Below, piece by piece: positions 29,459-31,939 of a stretch of 64,000 nucleotides of DNA (its first letter is position 1; every line of letters starts with the position of its first letter). Location of the stretch: the NCBI RefSeq assembly GCF_056712565.1, contig NZ_CM160072.1; one strand, written 5' to 3'. Under the pieces are notes generated by a model, which saw nothing but the letters and a program-made list of their open reading frames with translations, searched no databases and was not told where the DNA came from. The position numbers were made by a program, and so were the translations under genes.

Positions 29459-31939
29459 ATGGGTATTCAGAATTTCGACCACTCACACCACAAGCTCAAA
29501 ATTCGCGGCCTGAAAAGCCCGGTGGACGTGCTGACTTTTACAGGCCACGAACAGCTCAGCTCACCCTTCCGCTACGACATTCAGTTTACCAGCAGCGATA
29601 AAGCCATCGCGCCGGAATCGGTGCTGATGCAGGACGGCGCATTCAGCCTGACGGCACCGCCCGTACAGGGAATGCCGGTACAGACTGCCCTGCGCACCCT
29701 GCACGGCGTCATTACCGGCTTTAAACATCTCTCATCGTCACAGGACGAAGCCCGTTACGAAGTGCGCCTTGAACCCCGTATGGCGCTGCTTACCCGCAGC
29801 CGCCAGAACGCCATCTACCAGAACCAGACGGTGCCGCAAATCGTCGAAAAAATCCTGCGCGAGCGACACCAGATGCGCGGTCAGGACTTCGTGTTTAACC
29901 TCAAAAGCGAATACCCGGCCCGCGAACAGGTGATGCAGTATGGCGAGGACGACCTGACGTTTGTCTCACGCCTGCTGTCGGAAGTGGGTATCTGGTTCCG
30001 CTTCGCCACCGACGCCCGGCTGAAAATCGAAGTTATCGAATTTTACGACGACCAGAGCGGCTATGAGCGCGGGCTGACGCTGCCGCTTCGCCATCCTTCT
30101 GGGCTGTTTGATGGTGAAACGGAAGCCGTATGGGGGCTGAACACGGCATACAGCGTGGTGGAGAAAAACGTCACCACGCGGGACTACAACTACCGCACCG
30201 CCACAGCGGAGATGATGACAGAGCAGCATGACGCCACCGGGGGCGATAACACCACCTACGGCGAAGCCTACCACTATGCTGACAACTTCCTGCAAAAAGG
30301 CGATAAAGAGGCAGCGGAAAGCGGCGCGTTTTATGCCCGTATCCGCCACGAACGCTACCTGAATGAACAGGCCATTCTCAAAGGCCAGAGCACCAGTTCA
30401 CTGCTGATGCCGGGGCTGGAAATCAGGGTTCAGGGCGACGACGCGCCAGCGGTGTTCCGCAAGGGTGTGCTGATTACCGGCGTGACGGCCAGCGCGGCGC
30501 GTGACCGCAGCTATGAACTGACGTTCACGGCGATACCCTACTCAGAACGCTACGGCTACCGCCCGGCGCTTATCCCCCGCCCGGTAATGGCCGGCACGCT
30601 CCCGGCGCGGGTCACCAGCACGGTGAAGAACGATATTTATGCCCATATCGACAAGGACGGGCGCTACCGGGTCAATCTCGACTTTGACCGCGACGCATGG
30701 AAACCGGGTTATGAAAGCCTGTGGGTACGCCAGTCGCGCCCGTATGCGGGAGACACCTACGGCCTGCACCTGCCGCTGCTGGCGGGAACGGAGGTCAGCA
30801 TCGCCTTTGAGGAAGGCAACCCGGACCGACCTTATATTGCAGGCGTAAAACACGACTCGGCGCACACCGACCATGTGACCATTCAGAACTACAAGCGCAA
30901 CGTACTGCGTACCCCGGCCAACAACAAAATCCGGCTGGATGACGAACGCGGGAAGGAGCATATCAAGGTCAGCACCGAATACGGCGGCAAGAGCCAGCTA
31001 AACCTCGGTCATCTGGTGGATGCCGGGAAACAGCAGCGCGGGGAAGGCTTTGAACTGCGTACCGATATGTGGGGCGCAGTGCGGGCGAAGAAAGGGATTT
31101 TTATCAGCGCCGATGCGCAGGACAAGGCGCAGGGTCAGGTTCTGGATATGACTGATGCACTAGCTCAACTTCGCGAGGCACAGTCTTTGGTAGAGGCACT
31201 ATGTAGTGCTACTGAAGTGGCAAAGGCTGAACTTGCAGATTTGCAGACTCAGAAAGTAATGATGTCAGAGGCTCTGGAGGAACTCAAAAAATCAGCGATG
31301 TTGCTTTCGGCTCCGGAAGGAATAGCTCAGGTTACGCCAAAAAGCCTGCAGCTGTCCGCAGGAGAAAACATCATTAGCACCAGTGGAAAAAATTCAGATT
31401 TCAGCGTGTTGAAGAAGTTTACCGTTGCTGCTGGAGAAACGGTAAGTCTGTTTGCCCAAAAGCTGGGGATAAAAATTTTTGCCGGTAAGGGAAAAGTAGA
31501 GATTCAGGCGCAGGGAGATGAAATGTTGCTAGATGCGCTGAAAGATATCCGCATCAGCAGCAGTGAGGGGCGAATCCTTATTAGCGCAAAAAACGAAATC
31601 ATTCTGACCAGCGGCGGCGGATATATTCGTATTGGTGATGGTACGGTGGAATGCGCAGCCCCAGACAAGATCATAGAGCGTGGGGCCGTATGGCAGAAGT
31701 TCAGCGGCCAGAGCATCAGTCAGGCGATGCAACAGTGGGATTCTGCTGATTTTGCTGTCACACCAGAAATACTCTGGCAACAAACTGGCAAACCTGCAAA
31801 AAATCAAAAGGTACAGGTCACACGGGGTGATGGCTCAGTGGTGGAAATGACCACCGATGAACAAGGACGATTGCCCATACAGTCAGGGCTTTTCGTTGAG
31901 TCAATAAAAATTGATCTGCCGGATAGTCAGGAAAACTGA
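29459..31939 (+). CDS. vgrG: T6SS spike protein VgrG (TssI) with divergent C-terminal extension
   Basis: 826 aa MGIQNFDHSHHKLKIRG...; visibly AT-richer codon usage from about nt 31145 to the end. Confidence 0.9.
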   Translation: MGIQNFDHSHHKLKIRGLKSPVDVLTFTGHEQLSSPFRYDIQFTSSDKAIAPESVLMQDGAFSLTAPPVQGMPVQTALRTLHGVITGFKHLSSSQDEARYEVRLEPRMALLTRSRQNAIYQNQTVPQIVEKILRERHQMRGQDFVFNLKSEYPAREQVMQYGEDDLTFVSRLLSEVGIWFRFATDARLKIEVIEFYDDQSGYERGLTLPLRHPSGLFDGETEAVWGLNTAYSVVEKNVTTRDYNYRTATAEMMTEQHDATGGDNTTYGEAYHYADNFLQKGDKEAAESGAFYARIRHERYLNEQAILKGQSTSSLLMPGLEIRVQGDDAPAVFRKGVLITGVTASAARDRSYELTFTAIPYSERYGYRPALIPRPVMAGTLPARVTSTVKNDIYAHIDKDGRYRVNLDFDRDAWKPGYESLWVRQSRPYAGDTYGLHLPLLAGTEVSIAFEEGNPDRPYIAGVKHDSAHTDHVTIQNYKRNVLRTPANNKIRLDDERGKEHIKVSTEYGGKSQLNLGHLVDAGKQQRGEGFELRTDMWGAVRAKKGIFISADAQDKAQGQVLDMTDALAQLREAQSLVEALCSATEVAKAELADLQTQKVMMSEALEELKKSAMLLSAPEGIAQVTPKSLQLSAGENIISTSGKNSDFSVLKKFTVAAGETVSLFAQKLGIKIFAGKGKVEIQAQGDEMLLDALKDIRISSSEGRILISAKNEIILTSGGGYIRIGDGTVECAAPDKIIERGAVWQKFSGQSISQAMQQWDSADFAVTPEILWQQTGKPAKNQKVQVTRGDGSVVEMTTDEQGRLPIQSGLFVESIKIDLPDSQEN

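What the first reader, a model, noticed from the sequence alone, without database searches (positions are those of the whole stretch)
31145..31939. Compositional break inside vgrG at the start of its C-terminal extension
vgrG is GC-rich up to about nt 31140 (roughly residue 560), then abruptly AT-rich through its last 260 or so residues, matching the composition of the downstream lipase and immunity genes. This suggests the VgrG C-terminal adaptor region was co-acquired with the effector module.
Basis: seen in the sequence. Interest (0 to 1): 0.45.

Follow-up and report, generated by a model that had tools for sequence, protein, structure and literature searches.

The report
Swappable T6SS spike-tip and toxin cassette
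The GC drop inside vgrG is real: it marks the left edge of a 5.8-kb exchangeable block in an E. coli type VI secretion cluster that carries the spike's cargo-docking end with its lipase toxin, immunity gene and tip protein, a kind of weapon-module swapping that is already known.

Summary
Observation confirmed. In vgrG (29459-31939) the maximum-likelihood composition change point falls at 31132-31150 (codon ~560). GC3 drops from 0.73 to 0.46, beyond all 2000 codon shuffles.

The break is also a homology breakpoint. In about 1050 of 5426 E. coli genomes DNA similarity to this vgrG stops at 31140-31153. In three loci with other cargo it resumes at 36975-36978, inside tssM (codon ~107).

Across nine E. 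coli VgrGs, residues 1-560 are 95-99% identical whatever the cargo. Residues 561-826 are 98-100% identical when a Tle4 lipase follows and 12-48% otherwise. VgrG-C, lipase and PAAR-to-tssM-5' each occur in 182-184 genomes.

In other genera, 24 of 26 loci with this C-terminal tail have a Tle4 lipase next door, on two different VgrG N-terminal types.

Interpretation supported, with two nuances. The composition is graded (0.46, then 0.39) rather than matching. Lipase and immunity alleles have also been exchanged inside a constant VgrG-C/PAAR frame.

The kind is already known (vgrG-tle-tli-paar modules; Tle4/Tli4 of APEC). Two extras: the cassette also holds a membrane protein with a Tla3-like fold and the TssM N-terminal hairpin, and the window's tle4 and tli4 are frameshifted.

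The parts
29459..31141 (+). vgrG conserved part (residues 1-561: gp27-like base, OB fold, gp5-like beta-helix). It serves as the left homology arm.
   Evidence: Pfam Phage_GPD 30-346, Phage_base_V 398-463, T6SS_Vgr 484-582. PDB 2p5z (E. coli VgrG fragment) matches residues 1-478. 95-99% aa identity among nine E. coli VgrGs with six cargo types. GC 0.59, GC3 0.73.
31132..31153 (+). Left junction, where the composition change point and the end of DNA homology to loci with other cargo coincide.
   Evidence: Change point 31129-31150. blastn homology ends at 31140, 31150 or 31153 against L002-L005. About 1050 E. coli records match the query only up to position 1682-1692.
31142..31939 (+). vgrG C-terminal extension (residues 562-826 plus stop). 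It comprises two helices (about 31148-31288), the DUF2345 needle (31268-31705) and a ~77-residue tail (31706-31936) that is the presumed effector dock.
   Evidence: Pfam DUF2345 604-749. HMMER alignment to EAEC VgrG1 6sjl residues 575-821, E 1e-36. AF2 monomer shows helices 3-29 and 34-49, beta strands, and tail pLDDT 68-86; top Foldseek hits are 6sjl_A and 6sk0_A. GC 0.48, GC3 0.46.
31959..33125 (+). tle4 phospholipase gene, 5' ORF (388 aa, contains the GxSxG motif HSMGG). It is truncated by a frameshift.
   Evidence: Pfam PGAP1. The intact UTI89 allele (589 aa) matches P. aeruginosa Tle4 4r1d, E 4e-44. RefSeq calls it an esterase/lipase family protein.
33100..33101 (+). Site of a 10-bp deletion: one copy of the tandem AAATTGGTGG that UTI89 carries twice. 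It frameshifts tle4.
   Evidence: Alignment of the window with L008 (UTI89). The two-copy reading NRENWWKLVDENLL aligns with the A32 and A13 alleles and with 4r1d.
33104..33718 (+). tle4 3' ORF (204 aa), out of frame with the 5' ORF.
   Evidence: ORF list. It corresponds to residues ~386-589 of the UTI89 lipase.
33693..34788 (+). tli4 immunity gene, split into 277-aa and 97-aa ORFs by a frameshift near 34478-34483.
   Evidence: Pfam Tli4_N on the first ORF and Tli4_C on the second. tblastn of the intact A32 Tli4 hits two frames. The gene is intact at 372 aa in L006 and L009.
34931..35144 (+). Remnant of a further tli4 copy (C-terminal ~65 residues, itself frameshifted).
   Evidence: tblastn of both A32 Tli4 copies: residues 296-371 at 49-56% identity in frames 2 and 3.
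35252..35512 (+). PAAR tip protein (86 aa), specific to the cassette type.
   Evidence: Pfam PAAR_motif. 100% identical in A32, and 51-55% identical to the PAARs of the Tle3 and unknown-cargo cassettes.
35514..36650 (+). 378-aa protein with two N-terminal TM helices and a thiolase/ketosynthase-fold domain. Some RefSeq records name it 'KPHS_23130 family T6SS system protein'. It is specific to the cassette type.
36660..36980 (+). tssM 5' end (residues 1-~107: TM1, TM2 and linker), specific to the cassette type and AT-rich.
   Evidence: GC3 0.39 before codon 108 and 0.71 after. Unalignable between cassette types, then conserved from RYGPFWRRK. TM 10-28 and 38-56.
36975..36983 (+). Right junction, where DNA homology to loci with other cargo resumes and GC rises.
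   Evidence: blastn resumes at 36975-36978 against L002, L003 and L005. GC change points at 36981 and 36983.
36984..40013 (+). tssM conserved part, the right homology arm.
   Evidence: 96-97% DNA identity to loci with other cargo. RefSeq calls it an ImcF-related family protein.

Best explanation
The window is an E. coli T6SS-1 (Sci-1-type) cluster. The GC break at 31132-31150 is the left edge of a ~5.8-kb exchangeable cassette (31142-36980) set between two conserved arms, vgrG codons 1-561 and tssM from codon ~108.

The cassette encodes everything that has to fit the cargo:
- the VgrG C-terminal extension (two helices, DUF2345 needle, ~77-residue tail);
- the Tle4 phospholipase and its Tli4 immunity protein;
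- the PAAR cone that caps the needle;
- a two-TM protein with a Tla3-like fold;
- the TM1-TM2 hairpin of TssM.

Different E. coli lineages carry different cassettes at the same place (Tle4, Tle3, SLT, M23, DUF4123+Tle1, unknown).

Inferred mechanism: cassettes are replaced by homologous recombination in the conserved arms. The VgrG tail docks the N-terminus of the lipase, as shown for EAEC VgrG1-Tle1 and modelled for AIEC VgrG-Tle3. Selection therefore keeps the dock and the cargo family together.

Shown here: the break, the shared breakpoints, the linkage within E. coli and across genera, and a recombinant junction inside the left arm. Inferred: the physical VgrG-Tle4 contact, the recombination mechanism and the donor.

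A second, nested level of exchange swaps the tail plus effector, or the lipase core plus immunity gene, inside an otherwise constant cassette.
For: Break and significance.

Same breakpoints in all comparisons: homology to L002 (Tle3), L003 (unknown cargo) and L005 (SLT) ends at 31150-31153 and resumes at 36975-36978. For the three tandem vgrGs of L004 it ends at 31140-31153. About 1050 genomes match only the first 1682-1692 nt of vgrG.

Protein identities are discrete. The N part is 95-99% identical in all. The C part is 98-100% with Tle4 cargo and 12-48% otherwise. PAAR is 51-55%, the 378-aa protein 14-22%, and the TssM N-terminus unalignable between cassette types, but 100% within the Tle4 type.

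Co-occurrence in 5426 genomes: 184 (VgrG-C), 182 (lipase), 184 (PAAR to tssM 5') and 183 (VgrG-C plus lipase joined). The Tle3 cassette gave 96/96.

Across genera: 24 of 26 loci with a tail match have Tle4 and usually Tli4 next, in Yersinia, Buttiauxella, Pantoea, Serratia, Enterobacter, Providencia and others.

In about half of these loci VgrG-C is 59-73% identical to the window while VgrG-N is only 43-49%. The same C-terminus therefore sits on two N-terminal chassis.

The GC3 order core > VgrG-C > Tle4 >= Tli4 recurs in most of the 20 loci tabulated.

Recombination in the arm: A13 vgrG is 100% window-like up to about 30050 and A32-like after that. No repeats pair the two junctions. No integrase or transposase ORF lies in the cassette.

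Family assignments: 6sjl, 2p5z and 4r1d; Tli4_N/C and PAAR.

Published mechanism for relatives:
- The N-terminal strand of Tle1 complements the VgrG1 TTR domain, and PAAR caps the needle (PMC10715212).
- The AIEC VgrG adaptor (residues 768-824) is modelled against the Tle3 N-terminal loop (PMC9860674).
- P. aeruginosa has the same vgrG2a-tle4-tli4-PAAR3 order, and the VgrG2a TTR domain is predicted to be needed for Tle4 delivery (PMC7376260).
- APEC Tle4/Tli4 is a functional T6SS1 effector/immunity pair (PMC5874247).

The first ~36 residues of the lipase stay nearly the same in the E. coli alleles even where the following residues diverge, alongside a 100% identical VgrG tail.
Against: No physical VgrG-Tle4 interaction was tested, and only monomer prediction was available. 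The VgrG-C monomer model is weak (pLDDT 62).

VgrG-C is compositionally intermediate (GC3 0.46 against 0.25-0.37 downstream). One donor and one event are therefore not demonstrated.

Distance-matrix correlations do not clearly separate the partners. The Mantel r values are 0.69 for VgrG-C with Tle4, 0.64 for VgrG-C with VgrG-N and 0.46 for VgrG-N with Tle4.

The 184 E. coli genomes are few lineages, not independent samples. The cross-genus Fisher test is not phylogenetically corrected.

Linkage of the 378-aa protein and the TssM N-terminus with the cargo could be mere physical hitch-hiking.

There are exceptions:
- L012 (Enterobacter genomosp. O) has the C-terminus but no lipase.
- L037 (Paraburkholderia domus) has a 40%-identical full-length match and no Tle4.
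- Phytobacter L028 and L031 keep the helix+DUF2345 part but have another tail and other cargo.
Confidence: 0.88

Rival explanations
1. VgrG-C and the effector/immunity genes arrived in separate events. The cassette is a patchwork, and the shared low GC only reflects the general AT-richness of accessory DNA.
For: There is a second composition step at 32948 (0.456 to 0.387).

Among E. coli Tle4 cassettes, VgrG-C is at least 95% identical in all 184 genomes, but the lipase is only 60-80% identical in about 48. Window against A32 is 97-100% up to about 32300, 57-81% from 32300 to 35150, and 100% from 35300.

Phytobacter L028 has a new tail and new cargo placed in front of a tle4 3' remnant and two intact tli4 genes.
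Against: At the family level the dock and Tle4 are never seen apart in E. coli (182-184 genomes each). Across genera they are together in 24 of 26 loci. The nested events replace one Tle4/Tli4 allele by another, or replace the tail together with the cargo. The tail-to-cargo pairing is therefore kept. This looks like a true second-order process rather than an alternative to the main explanation.
Confidence: 0.08
2. There was no transfer. The C-terminal extension diverged in place under diversifying selection and AT-biased mutation while the N-terminal part stayed constrained.
For: Effector-facing surfaces are expected to evolve fast. Among Tle4-linked VgrGs the tail is the most variable part (alignment A1).
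Against: Identities are bimodal (98-100% or below 50%) with no intermediates. The switch happens within about 15 nt in every comparison.

The change is mainly at synonymous sites (GC3 0.73 to 0.46).

The same C-terminal type at 59-73% identity sits on a 43-49% identical N-terminal chassis in other genera. The neighbouring PAAR, 378-aa protein and tssM 5' end switch together with it.
Confidence: 0.02
3. The AT-rich C-terminal extension is itself a toxin domain (an 'evolved' VgrG) rather than a loading dock, as reported for the DUF2345 region of Klebsiella pneumoniae VgrG4.
For: The discussion of PMC10763514 cites a toxic DUF2345 C-terminus in K. pneumoniae VgrG4. DUF2345 is present here.
Against: The closest solved relative is EAEC VgrG1, whose DUF2345 is a structural needle and whose TTR domain binds Tle1. 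No enzymatic domain was found in residues 562-826. The region is strictly linked to a separate lipase and immunity pair. Toxicity was not tested here.
Confidence: 0.04
4. The block is a site-specifically inserted mobile element (integrative island) that happened to land in vgrG.
For: Sharp edges and low GC. IS elements are seen in the cassette of some strains.
Against: No integrase, transposase or tRNA gene is among the ORFs and domains found in the window's cassette. No direct or inverted repeats pair the two junctions. Both edges lie in frame inside essential genes and keep them intact. All cassette types share the same edges. The IS copies are strain-specific disruptions.
Confidence: 0.02

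Closest known systems
EAEC 042/17-2 Sci-1 (T6SS-1) VgrG1-Tle1-Tli1-PAAR (PDB 6sjl, 6sk0; Flaugnatti et al. 2016 and 2020, as cited in PMC9860674 and PMC10715212)
   Same: Same cluster type and gene order (hcp, clpV, vgrG, tle, tli, PAAR, gene X, tssM). Same VgrG architecture: gp27/gp5 core, helices, DUF2345 needle, C-terminal tail. The full-length HMMER match is E 3e-203, and the C part alone is E 1e-36.
   Different: The cargo is Tle1, not Tle4. The C-terminal extension is only distantly similar (Foldseek reports 29% identity to 6sjl_A over its alignment). The binding of Tle4 to this tail is inferred, not shown.
APEC TW-XM / UPEC UTI89 T6SS1 Tle4-Tli4 (Ma et al. 2014, as cited; PMC5874247; review PMC6730261)
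   Same: This is the same locus. The window is identical to UTI89 across 29000-37400 except for a 10-bp indel. Tle4/Tli4 was shown to be an Hcp1-dependent antibacterial effector/immunity pair. [quoted passage not shown]
   Different: The window's tle4 carries the 10-bp deletion and is split. I did not find the exact breakpoints, the GC3 step or the extension of the variable block into tssM stated in the papers I could read.
AIEC LF82 / CFT073 VgrG-Tli3-Tle3 (PMC9860674)
   Same: Same locus and same conserved arms (96-97% DNA identity outside the cassette). VgrG-Tle3 binding was shown by pull-down, and the adaptor tail (768-824) was modelled against the Tle3 N-terminal loop. Linkage of VgrG-C with tli3 and tle3 is 96/96 genomes.
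   Different: A different cassette. VgrG residues 561-826 are 27-38% identical, PAAR 51%, and the membrane protein 21% (477 aa with extra C-terminal TM helices). The TssM N-terminus is unalignable.
Pseudomonas aeruginosa vgrG2a island hcpA-vgrG2a-tle4-tli4-PAAR3 (PA1512-PA1508; PMC7376260; Tle4 structure 4r1d)
   Same: Same module order of VgrG with a TTR tail, Tle4, Tli4 and PAAR. The lipase is homologous (E 4e-44). Tli4_N/C domains are present. VgrG2a is required for Tle4 delivery and its TTR domain is predicted to be needed.
   Different: It is an orphan island, not embedded between clpV and tssM. It was not retrieved by the VgrG-C peptide scan.
Vibrio cholerae auxiliary-cluster effector modules (Unterweger et al. 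2014, as cited in PMC6730261; Kirchberger et al. 2017, PMC5361080, title and abstract only) and E. coli 'vgrG islands / VT modules' (Ma et al. 2018, cited in PMC6730261 and PMC10711316)
   Same: Conserved structural genes with discrete, low-GC, exchangeable effector/immunity modules. Orphan immunity remnants are left by displacement (window 34931-35144; Phytobacter L028). The GC of such modules is reported as 6-13% lower than the core.
   Different: Here the module boundary lies inside two core genes (vgrG and tssM) and includes PAAR and a membrane protein.

Membership tests
VgrG with EAEC-VgrG1-type C-terminal extension (helices, DUF2345, TTR; COG4532 as named in PMC9860674) | gp27/gp5-like spike core | tested here: met
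   Pfam Phage_GPD, Phage_base_V and T6SS_Vgr. TIGR01646 at 462 bits. PDB 2p5z and 6sjl.
VgrG with EAEC-VgrG1-type C-terminal extension (helices, DUF2345, TTR; COG4532 as named in PMC9860674) | Two-helix linker followed by a DUF2345 beta-helical needle | tested here: met
   DUF2345 at residues 604-749, E 2e-48. AF2 helices at fragment residues 3-29 and 34-49, then strands. Alignment to 6sjl 575-821.
VgrG with EAEC-VgrG1-type C-terminal extension (helices, DUF2345, TTR; COG4532 as named in PMC9860674) | C-terminal transthyretin-like (TTR) domain | tested here: inconclusive
   The tail aligns with the 6sjl tail and shares the G.P....Y/V......G......TD..G pattern with the Tle3- and SLT-linked tails. 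AF2 gives a beta-rich tail with pLDDT 68-86. The fold was not compared on its own, and the global TM-score to 6sjl is only 0.2.
VgrG with EAEC-VgrG1-type C-terminal extension (helices, DUF2345, TTR; COG4532 as named in PMC9860674) | Direct binding of the downstream Tle effector to the tail | not testable with these tools
   Only monomer structure prediction was available. The binding is inferred from EAEC Tle1 and AIEC Tle3 and from co-conservation of the tail with the first ~36 lipase residues.
Tle4 family of T6SS phospholipases | Homology to P. aeruginosa Tle4 (PA1510/TplE) with a PGAP1-like alpha/beta-hydrolase core and a GxSxG motif | tested here: met
   4r1d at E 4e-44 over residues 9-460 of the intact UTI89 allele. 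HSMGG aligns with HSMGG. Pfam PGAP1.
Tle4 family of T6SS phospholipases | Intact reading frame in this window | tested here: not met
   A 10-bp deletion at 33100 splits the gene into 388-aa and 204-aa ORFs. It is intact in UTI89, A32 and A13.
Tle4 family of T6SS phospholipases | T6SS-dependent antibacterial activity neutralised by the adjacent immunity protein | not testable with these tools
   Reported for APEC TW-XM Tle4/Tli4 (PMC5874247). Not tested for this allele.
Tli4 immunity proteins | Tli4_N and Tli4_C domains encoded directly downstream of tle4 | tested here: met
   Pfam PF18443 (E 2e-18) and PF18426 (E 4e-10). However, the two domains lie in two different frames: there is a frameshift near 34478-34483 in both the window and UTI89.
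Exchangeable T6SS effector module (vgrG island / auxiliary-cluster type) | Conserved flanks with discrete, mutually unalignable centre types at one chromosomal position | tested here: met
Exchangeable T6SS effector module (vgrG island / auxiliary-cluster type) | Base composition of the module differs from that of the structural genes | tested here: met
   0.39-0.46 against 0.60. The same GC3 order is seen in most of the 20 loci from other genera.
Exchangeable T6SS effector module (vgrG island / auxiliary-cluster type) | Carrier-specific part and effector inherited together | tested here: met
   182-184 genomes for each part. 96/96 for the Tle3 type. 24/26 against 0/17 across genera.
Exchangeable T6SS effector module (vgrG island / auxiliary-cluster type) | Orphan immunity genes or remnants left by displacement | tested here: met
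   tli4 remnant at 34931-35144. Second tli4 copies in A32 and A13. Phytobacter L028 has a tle4 remnant plus two tli4 genes behind new cargo.
DUF2875 / Tla3-type T6SS adaptors (considered for the 378-aa protein 35514-36650) | DUF2875 sequence signature | tested here: not met
   No Pfam or NCBIfam hit for it or its 15 relatives. A profile search of PDB sequences does not find 8yz3.
DUF2875 / Tla3-type T6SS adaptors (considered for the 378-aa protein 35514-36650) | Tla3-like fold | tested here: inconclusive
   [not shown]
DUF2875 / Tla3-type T6SS adaptors (considered for the 378-aa protein 35514-36650) | Binds its effector and the VgrG tail; cytoplasmic | not testable with these tools
   Tla3 properties come from PMC6560169. 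The protein here has two predicted TM helices, unlike the cytoplasmic Tla3.

The most novel reading that the evidence does not exclude
The exchangeable unit may be more than spike tip plus cargo. It may also carry a matched pair of membrane parts: the TM1-TM2 hairpin of the membrane-complex protein TssM and a two-TM protein with a Tla3-like (thiolase/ketosynthase) fold encoded just upstream.

Both switch with the cassette type in E. coli. For the Tle4 type, both remain recognisable across genera. TssM residues 1-105 are 36-51% identical there, which is as high as or higher than TssM residues 120-600 in the same loci.

If this reflects function rather than hitch-hiking, the membrane-anchored Tla3-like protein would be a cargo-specific adaptor. 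It would hand the lipase to the spike at the membrane complex through contact with the TssM hairpin. That would be a link between cargo identity and the membrane complex that has not been described.
Probability: 0.15. Interest if true: 0.6.

Novelty: already known. Interest (0 to 1): 0.3.

Why it matters
It shows, with exact coordinates and population counts, how E. coli re-arms one secretion machine. The conserved 5' 1.7 kb of vgrG and tssM from codon ~108 act as fixed arms. Between them, a block holding the cargo dock, toxin, immunity gene, tip protein and two membrane-facing parts is swapped as a unit. A finer layer of toxin/immunity or tail/toxin replacement sits inside that block.

This is useful for three practical purposes. 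It helps in typing T6SS-1 effector sets from genomes. It marks VgrG residue ~561 as the natural fusion point for engineering spikes that carry chosen cargo. It also helps in reading which strains are actually armed: the window's lineage, which includes the E. coli type strain, carries frameshifted tle4 and tli4.

The principle itself, that the VgrG C-terminus is the specificity determinant and is exchanged with its effector, is established in the literature.

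Tried and rejected
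- Amino-acid composition as the cause of the GC drop was rejected. GC2 is unchanged (0.41/0.40) and GC3 carries the shift.
- The Mantel tests were meant to show that VgrG-C tracks Tle4 rather than VgrG-N. All three correlations were significant, and C-Tle4 (0.69) is barely above C-N (0.64). The test does not discriminate.
- The AF2 model of the VgrG-C monomer has low confidence (pLDDT 62), as expected for one chain of a trimeric beta-helix. I used it only for secondary structure and for the top Foldseek hits.
- Pfam, NCBIfam and a profile search of PDB sequences for the 378-aa protein and its relatives found nothing.
- The afdb50 fold library was not available.
- Journet & Cascales 2016 (PMC11575709) and Flaugnatti 2020 (PMC7265238) are not held in the library. 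Their content is cited only through papers that quote them.
- A search for 'KPHS_23130' found one unrelated clinical paper.
- The repeat search at the junctions gave only short chance-level matches, none pairing 31140 with 36980.
- One align_proteins call failed on stop codons and was redone. One literature search failed because it had too many terms.

Full report
WHAT THE WINDOW IS. The 7.2 kb from vgrG to tssM is 100% identical to E. coli ZJ3920. It is also identical to UTI89 apart from one 10-bp indel. RefSeq annotation of the identical record gives this order: tssK, tssL, an OmpA-family protein, hcp, tssH/clpV, vgrG (labelled 'DUF2345 domain-containing protein'), an esterase/lipase, three small CDSs (two annotated hypothetical, the third as a Tli4-family immunity protein), PAAR, a hypothetical protein, tssM (labelled ImcF-related), tssA and a PAAR-domain protein. 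By gene content and order, this is the T6SS-1 / Sci-1-type cluster of E. coli as described in PMC10711316 and PMC6730261.

THE OBSERVATION.
- GC is about 0.60 from clpV to about 31100. It is 0.45-0.51 across the last 800 nt of vgrG, 0.30-0.44 up to about 36950, and about 0.60 again after that.
- Inside vgrG the maximum-likelihood change point is 31134-31145 using all positions. Using third codon positions it is codon 557-564 (31129-31150).
- GC3 falls from 0.725 to 0.455 while GC2 stays at 0.41/0.40.
- The GC3 log-likelihood ratio is 28.6. The maximum in 2000 codon shuffles was 9.9.
- clpV, ompA and tssA show no internal break (1.0-3.4). tssM does (21.1), at codon 108 = window 36983.
- Segmentation of 26-42 kb gives 0.599, break at 31200, 0.456, break at 32948, 0.387, break at 36981, 0.607.

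The C-terminal part matches the first ~1 kb of the lipase gene, but it is less AT-rich than everything further downstream.

THE BREAK IS A HOMOLOGY BREAKPOINT.
- A megablast of 29459-36700 against 5426 complete E. coli genomes found 1304 genomes with a match. About 1050 of these matched at 90-95% identity, and in every such row listed only over query positions 1 to 1682-1692, i.e. window 29459 to 31140-31150.
- I fetched loci with other genes after vgrG: Tli3-Tle3 (L002), three unnamed genes (L003), three tandem vgrGs followed by M23 peptidase, DUF4123+Tle1 and SLT (L004), and SLT (L005).
- blastn against these shows 94-97% identity up to 31140-31153, nothing after that, and 96-97% identity again from 36975-36978. 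That point lies inside tssM.
- At protein level, VgrG residues 1-560 are 95-99% identical among all nine VgrGs. Residues 561-826 are 98-100% identical in the two other loci with a Tle4-type lipase (A32 = L006, A13 = L009) and 12-48% in the rest.
- The sequence switches at ...DKAQGQV(L/R)(D/E)M. In the AF2 model this is the start of two helices that precede the DUF2345 strands. It corresponds to residue 575 of EAEC VgrG1.

THE CASSETTE IS LARGER THAN VgrG-C PLUS EFFECTOR. Between cassette types, PAAR is 51-55% identical. The protein encoded before tssM is 14-22% identical, though it has the same two-TM architecture. The first ~105 residues of TssM (TM1, TM2, linker) are unalignable, and conservation resumes at RYGPFWRRK. 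Within the Tle4 type these parts are 100% (A32) or 91-97% (A13, DNA) identical.

LINKAGE IN E. COLI.

| Query | Genomes with at least 80% coverage |
|---|---|
| VgrG-C alone | 184 (all at 95% identity or more) |
| Lipase alone | 182 |
| PAAR + 378-aa gene + tssM 5' | 184 |
| VgrG-C + lipase as one query | 183 |

The few extra records in each search show only ~100-nt fragments. For the Tle3 cassette, VgrG-C + tli3 + tle3 gave 96 genomes, all with full coverage. These genomes are not independent lineages, so I also looked outside E. coli.

LINKAGE ACROSS GENERA.
- A peptide-pattern scan of one genome per GTDB species with VgrG residues 562-826 returned 47 loci. I scored each with tblastn for nine query proteins.
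- All 19 evaluable loci with a match of at least 59% identity covering the tail, except L012, have a Tle4-like lipase (31-48% identity) directly downstream, mostly followed by Tli4. They come from Yersinia, Buttiauxella, Pantoea, Serratia, Huaxiibacter, Enterobacter, Tatumella, Rosenbergiella, Mangrovibacter, Providencia, Acerihabitans, Moellerella and Erwinia.
- Five contig-start fragments that hold only the tail, and one Paraburkholderia locus at 44%, also have the lipase. The total is 24 of 26.
- None of the 17 loci that match only the helix+DUF2345 part has an intact Tle4 lipase next door (Fisher p = 4e-10, not corrected for phylogeny).
- In about half of the Tle4 loci, VgrG-C is 59-73% identical to the window while VgrG-N is only 43-49% and ClpV is 70-81%. 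In the others VgrG-N is 59-65%. Clustering gives two N-terminal classes. By contrast, VgrG-C splits only into a Providencia/Moellerella group and the rest, and that split does not follow the N-terminal classes.
- The same C-terminal extension is therefore mounted on different spike bodies, which is what modular transfer predicts.
- The GC3 order core > VgrG-C > Tle4 >= Tli4 recurs in most of the 20 loci tabulated, even in low-GC Providencia and Moellerella. The intermediate composition of VgrG-C is thus a property of the module family, not of this strain.

A SECOND, NESTED LEVEL OF EXCHANGE.
- Window against A32 is 97-100% identical from 31400 to about 32300 (VgrG-C and the first ~115 lipase codons). 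It is 57-81% from 32300 to 35150 (lipase core, tli4) and 100% from 35300 onwards.
- Against A13 the drop starts at about 32000.
- The first ~36 lipase residues stay almost the same in all alleles next to a 100% identical VgrG tail. This fits an N-terminal docking segment, as described for Tle1 and modelled for Tle3.
- In the ST131-type locus, the M23-linked and DUF4123/Tle1-linked VgrGs share the helices (98%) and DUF2345 (97%) but have different tails (27%).
- Phytobacter L031 and L028 have the Tle4-type helix+DUF2345 (77-80%) but another tail and non-Tle4 genes after it. L028 still carries a tle4 3' remnant, two intact tli4 genes, PAAR and the 378-aa protein further on.

The tail is therefore the cargo-specific layer. 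The helix+DUF2345 part goes with PAAR, which caps that needle in EAEC (PMC10715212).

MECHANISM OF EXCHANGE (INFERRED). No integrase or transposase is encoded in the window's cassette. No repeats pair the two junctions. Both junctions are in frame within essential genes, and all cassette types share them. A13 vgrG is 100% window-like up to about 30050 and A32-like from there, which is a crossover inside the left arm. The simplest reading is homologous recombination anywhere in the conserved arms. The fixed 'junction' is then an old domain boundary rather than a recombination site.

FAMILY ASSIGNMENTS.
- VgrG: Phage_GPD, Phage_base_V, T6SS_Vgr and DUF2345. PDB 2p5z covers residues 1-478, and EAEC VgrG1 6sjl matches at E 3e-203.
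- Lipase: PGAP1-like. The intact UTI89 allele matches P. aeruginosa Tle4 4r1d at E 4e-44, with HSMGG aligned.
- Immunity: Tli4_N and Tli4_C.

The literature already describes Tle4/Tli4 as a functional T6SS1 pair in APEC TW-XM (PMC5874247). [quoted passage not shown] VgrG C-terminal domains are regarded as specificity determinants for effector loading (PMC6560169). P. aeruginosa has the same vgrG2a-tle4-tli4-PAAR3 order (PMC7376260). The finding is therefore a correct reading of a known kind of system.

STATE OF THE GENES IN THIS WINDOW.
- tle4 has lost one copy of a tandem 10-mer (AAATTGGTGG) at 33100, which splits it into 388-aa and 204-aa ORFs. UTI89 keeps both copies and a 589-aa protein whose reading aligns with other alleles and with 4r1d.
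- By the usual Ser-Asp-His order of alpha/beta hydrolases, the split probably separates the serine motif from the downstream GDGTVP and His region. This is my inference and was not tested.
- Judging from evenly spaced result rows, roughly half of the ~130 near-identical genomes carry the deletion. They include the type strain ATCC 11775.
- tli4 is frameshifted in both the window and UTI89, and a remnant of a further tli4 lies at 34931-35144.

VERDICT. The kind is already known, and interest is modest.

Noticed in passing
window 33100 (tle4, 31959-33718): The lipase effector gene is split by a 10-bp deletion, the loss of one copy of the tandem AAATTGGTGG that UTI89 carries twice. Roughly half of the ~130 near-identical E. 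coli genomes share the deletion, including the type strain ATCC 11775. This lineage may therefore be disarmed for Tle4.
   Followed up: yes
window 33693-34788 and 34931-35144: tli4 is frameshifted near 34478-34483 in both the window and UTI89 (277-aa and 97-aa ORFs). It is intact (372 aa) and duplicated in strains A32 and A13. A frameshifted remnant of a further tli4 C-terminus lies at 34931-35144, as expected from effector displacement that leaves immunity fragments behind.
   Followed up: partly
window 36660-36983 (tssM 5' end): tssM has its own internal composition break at codon 108 (GC3 0.39 to 0.71). Its first ~105 residues (TM1, TM2, linker) are unalignable between cassette types but identical within the Tle4 type. 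The variable cassette therefore ends inside a core membrane-complex gene.
   Followed up: partly
[not shown]
   Followed up: partly
window 41616-44900: A second AT-rich cassette lies between tssA and tssF. It comprises a 527-aa PAAR-fusion protein (PAAR motif at residues 12-68) with a GC3 break at codon 109 (0.65 to 0.32, window 41942), followed by two ORFs with no Pfam hit. Of 1289 E. coli genomes that match the conserved ends, only 158 hold the whole block.
   Followed up: partly
L028 (Phytobacter diazotrophicus) 101-7673; L031 (Phytobacter ursingii) 5315-10852: These VgrGs have the Tle4-type helices and DUF2345 (77-80% identity) but a different tail, followed by unnamed genes. L028 still has a 122-aa tle4 3' remnant, two intact tli4 genes, PAAR and the 378-aa protein downstream. 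This is a clear case of tail plus effector displacement.
   Followed up: partly
L009 (E. coli A13) vgrG, equivalent to window ~30050: A13 is 100% identical to the window up to about 30050 and follows the A32 allele from there on. This is a recombination junction inside the conserved part of vgrG.
   Followed up: partly
L012 (Enterobacter genomosp. O) 5285-8867: This VgrG has the Tle4-type C-terminus (73% identity) with an altered last ~20 residues. It is followed directly by the homologue of the 378-aa protein, so tle4, tli4 and PAAR appear to have been deleted.
   Followed up: no
window 23000-31100 and 37000-41900 against flanks 1-19000 and 56000-64000: The T6SS core genes (GC about 0.60, GC3 about 0.70) are richer in GC than the surrounding E. 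coli backbone in this window (0.48-0.56). The whole cluster, not only the cassettes, is therefore compositionally foreign.
   Followed up: no
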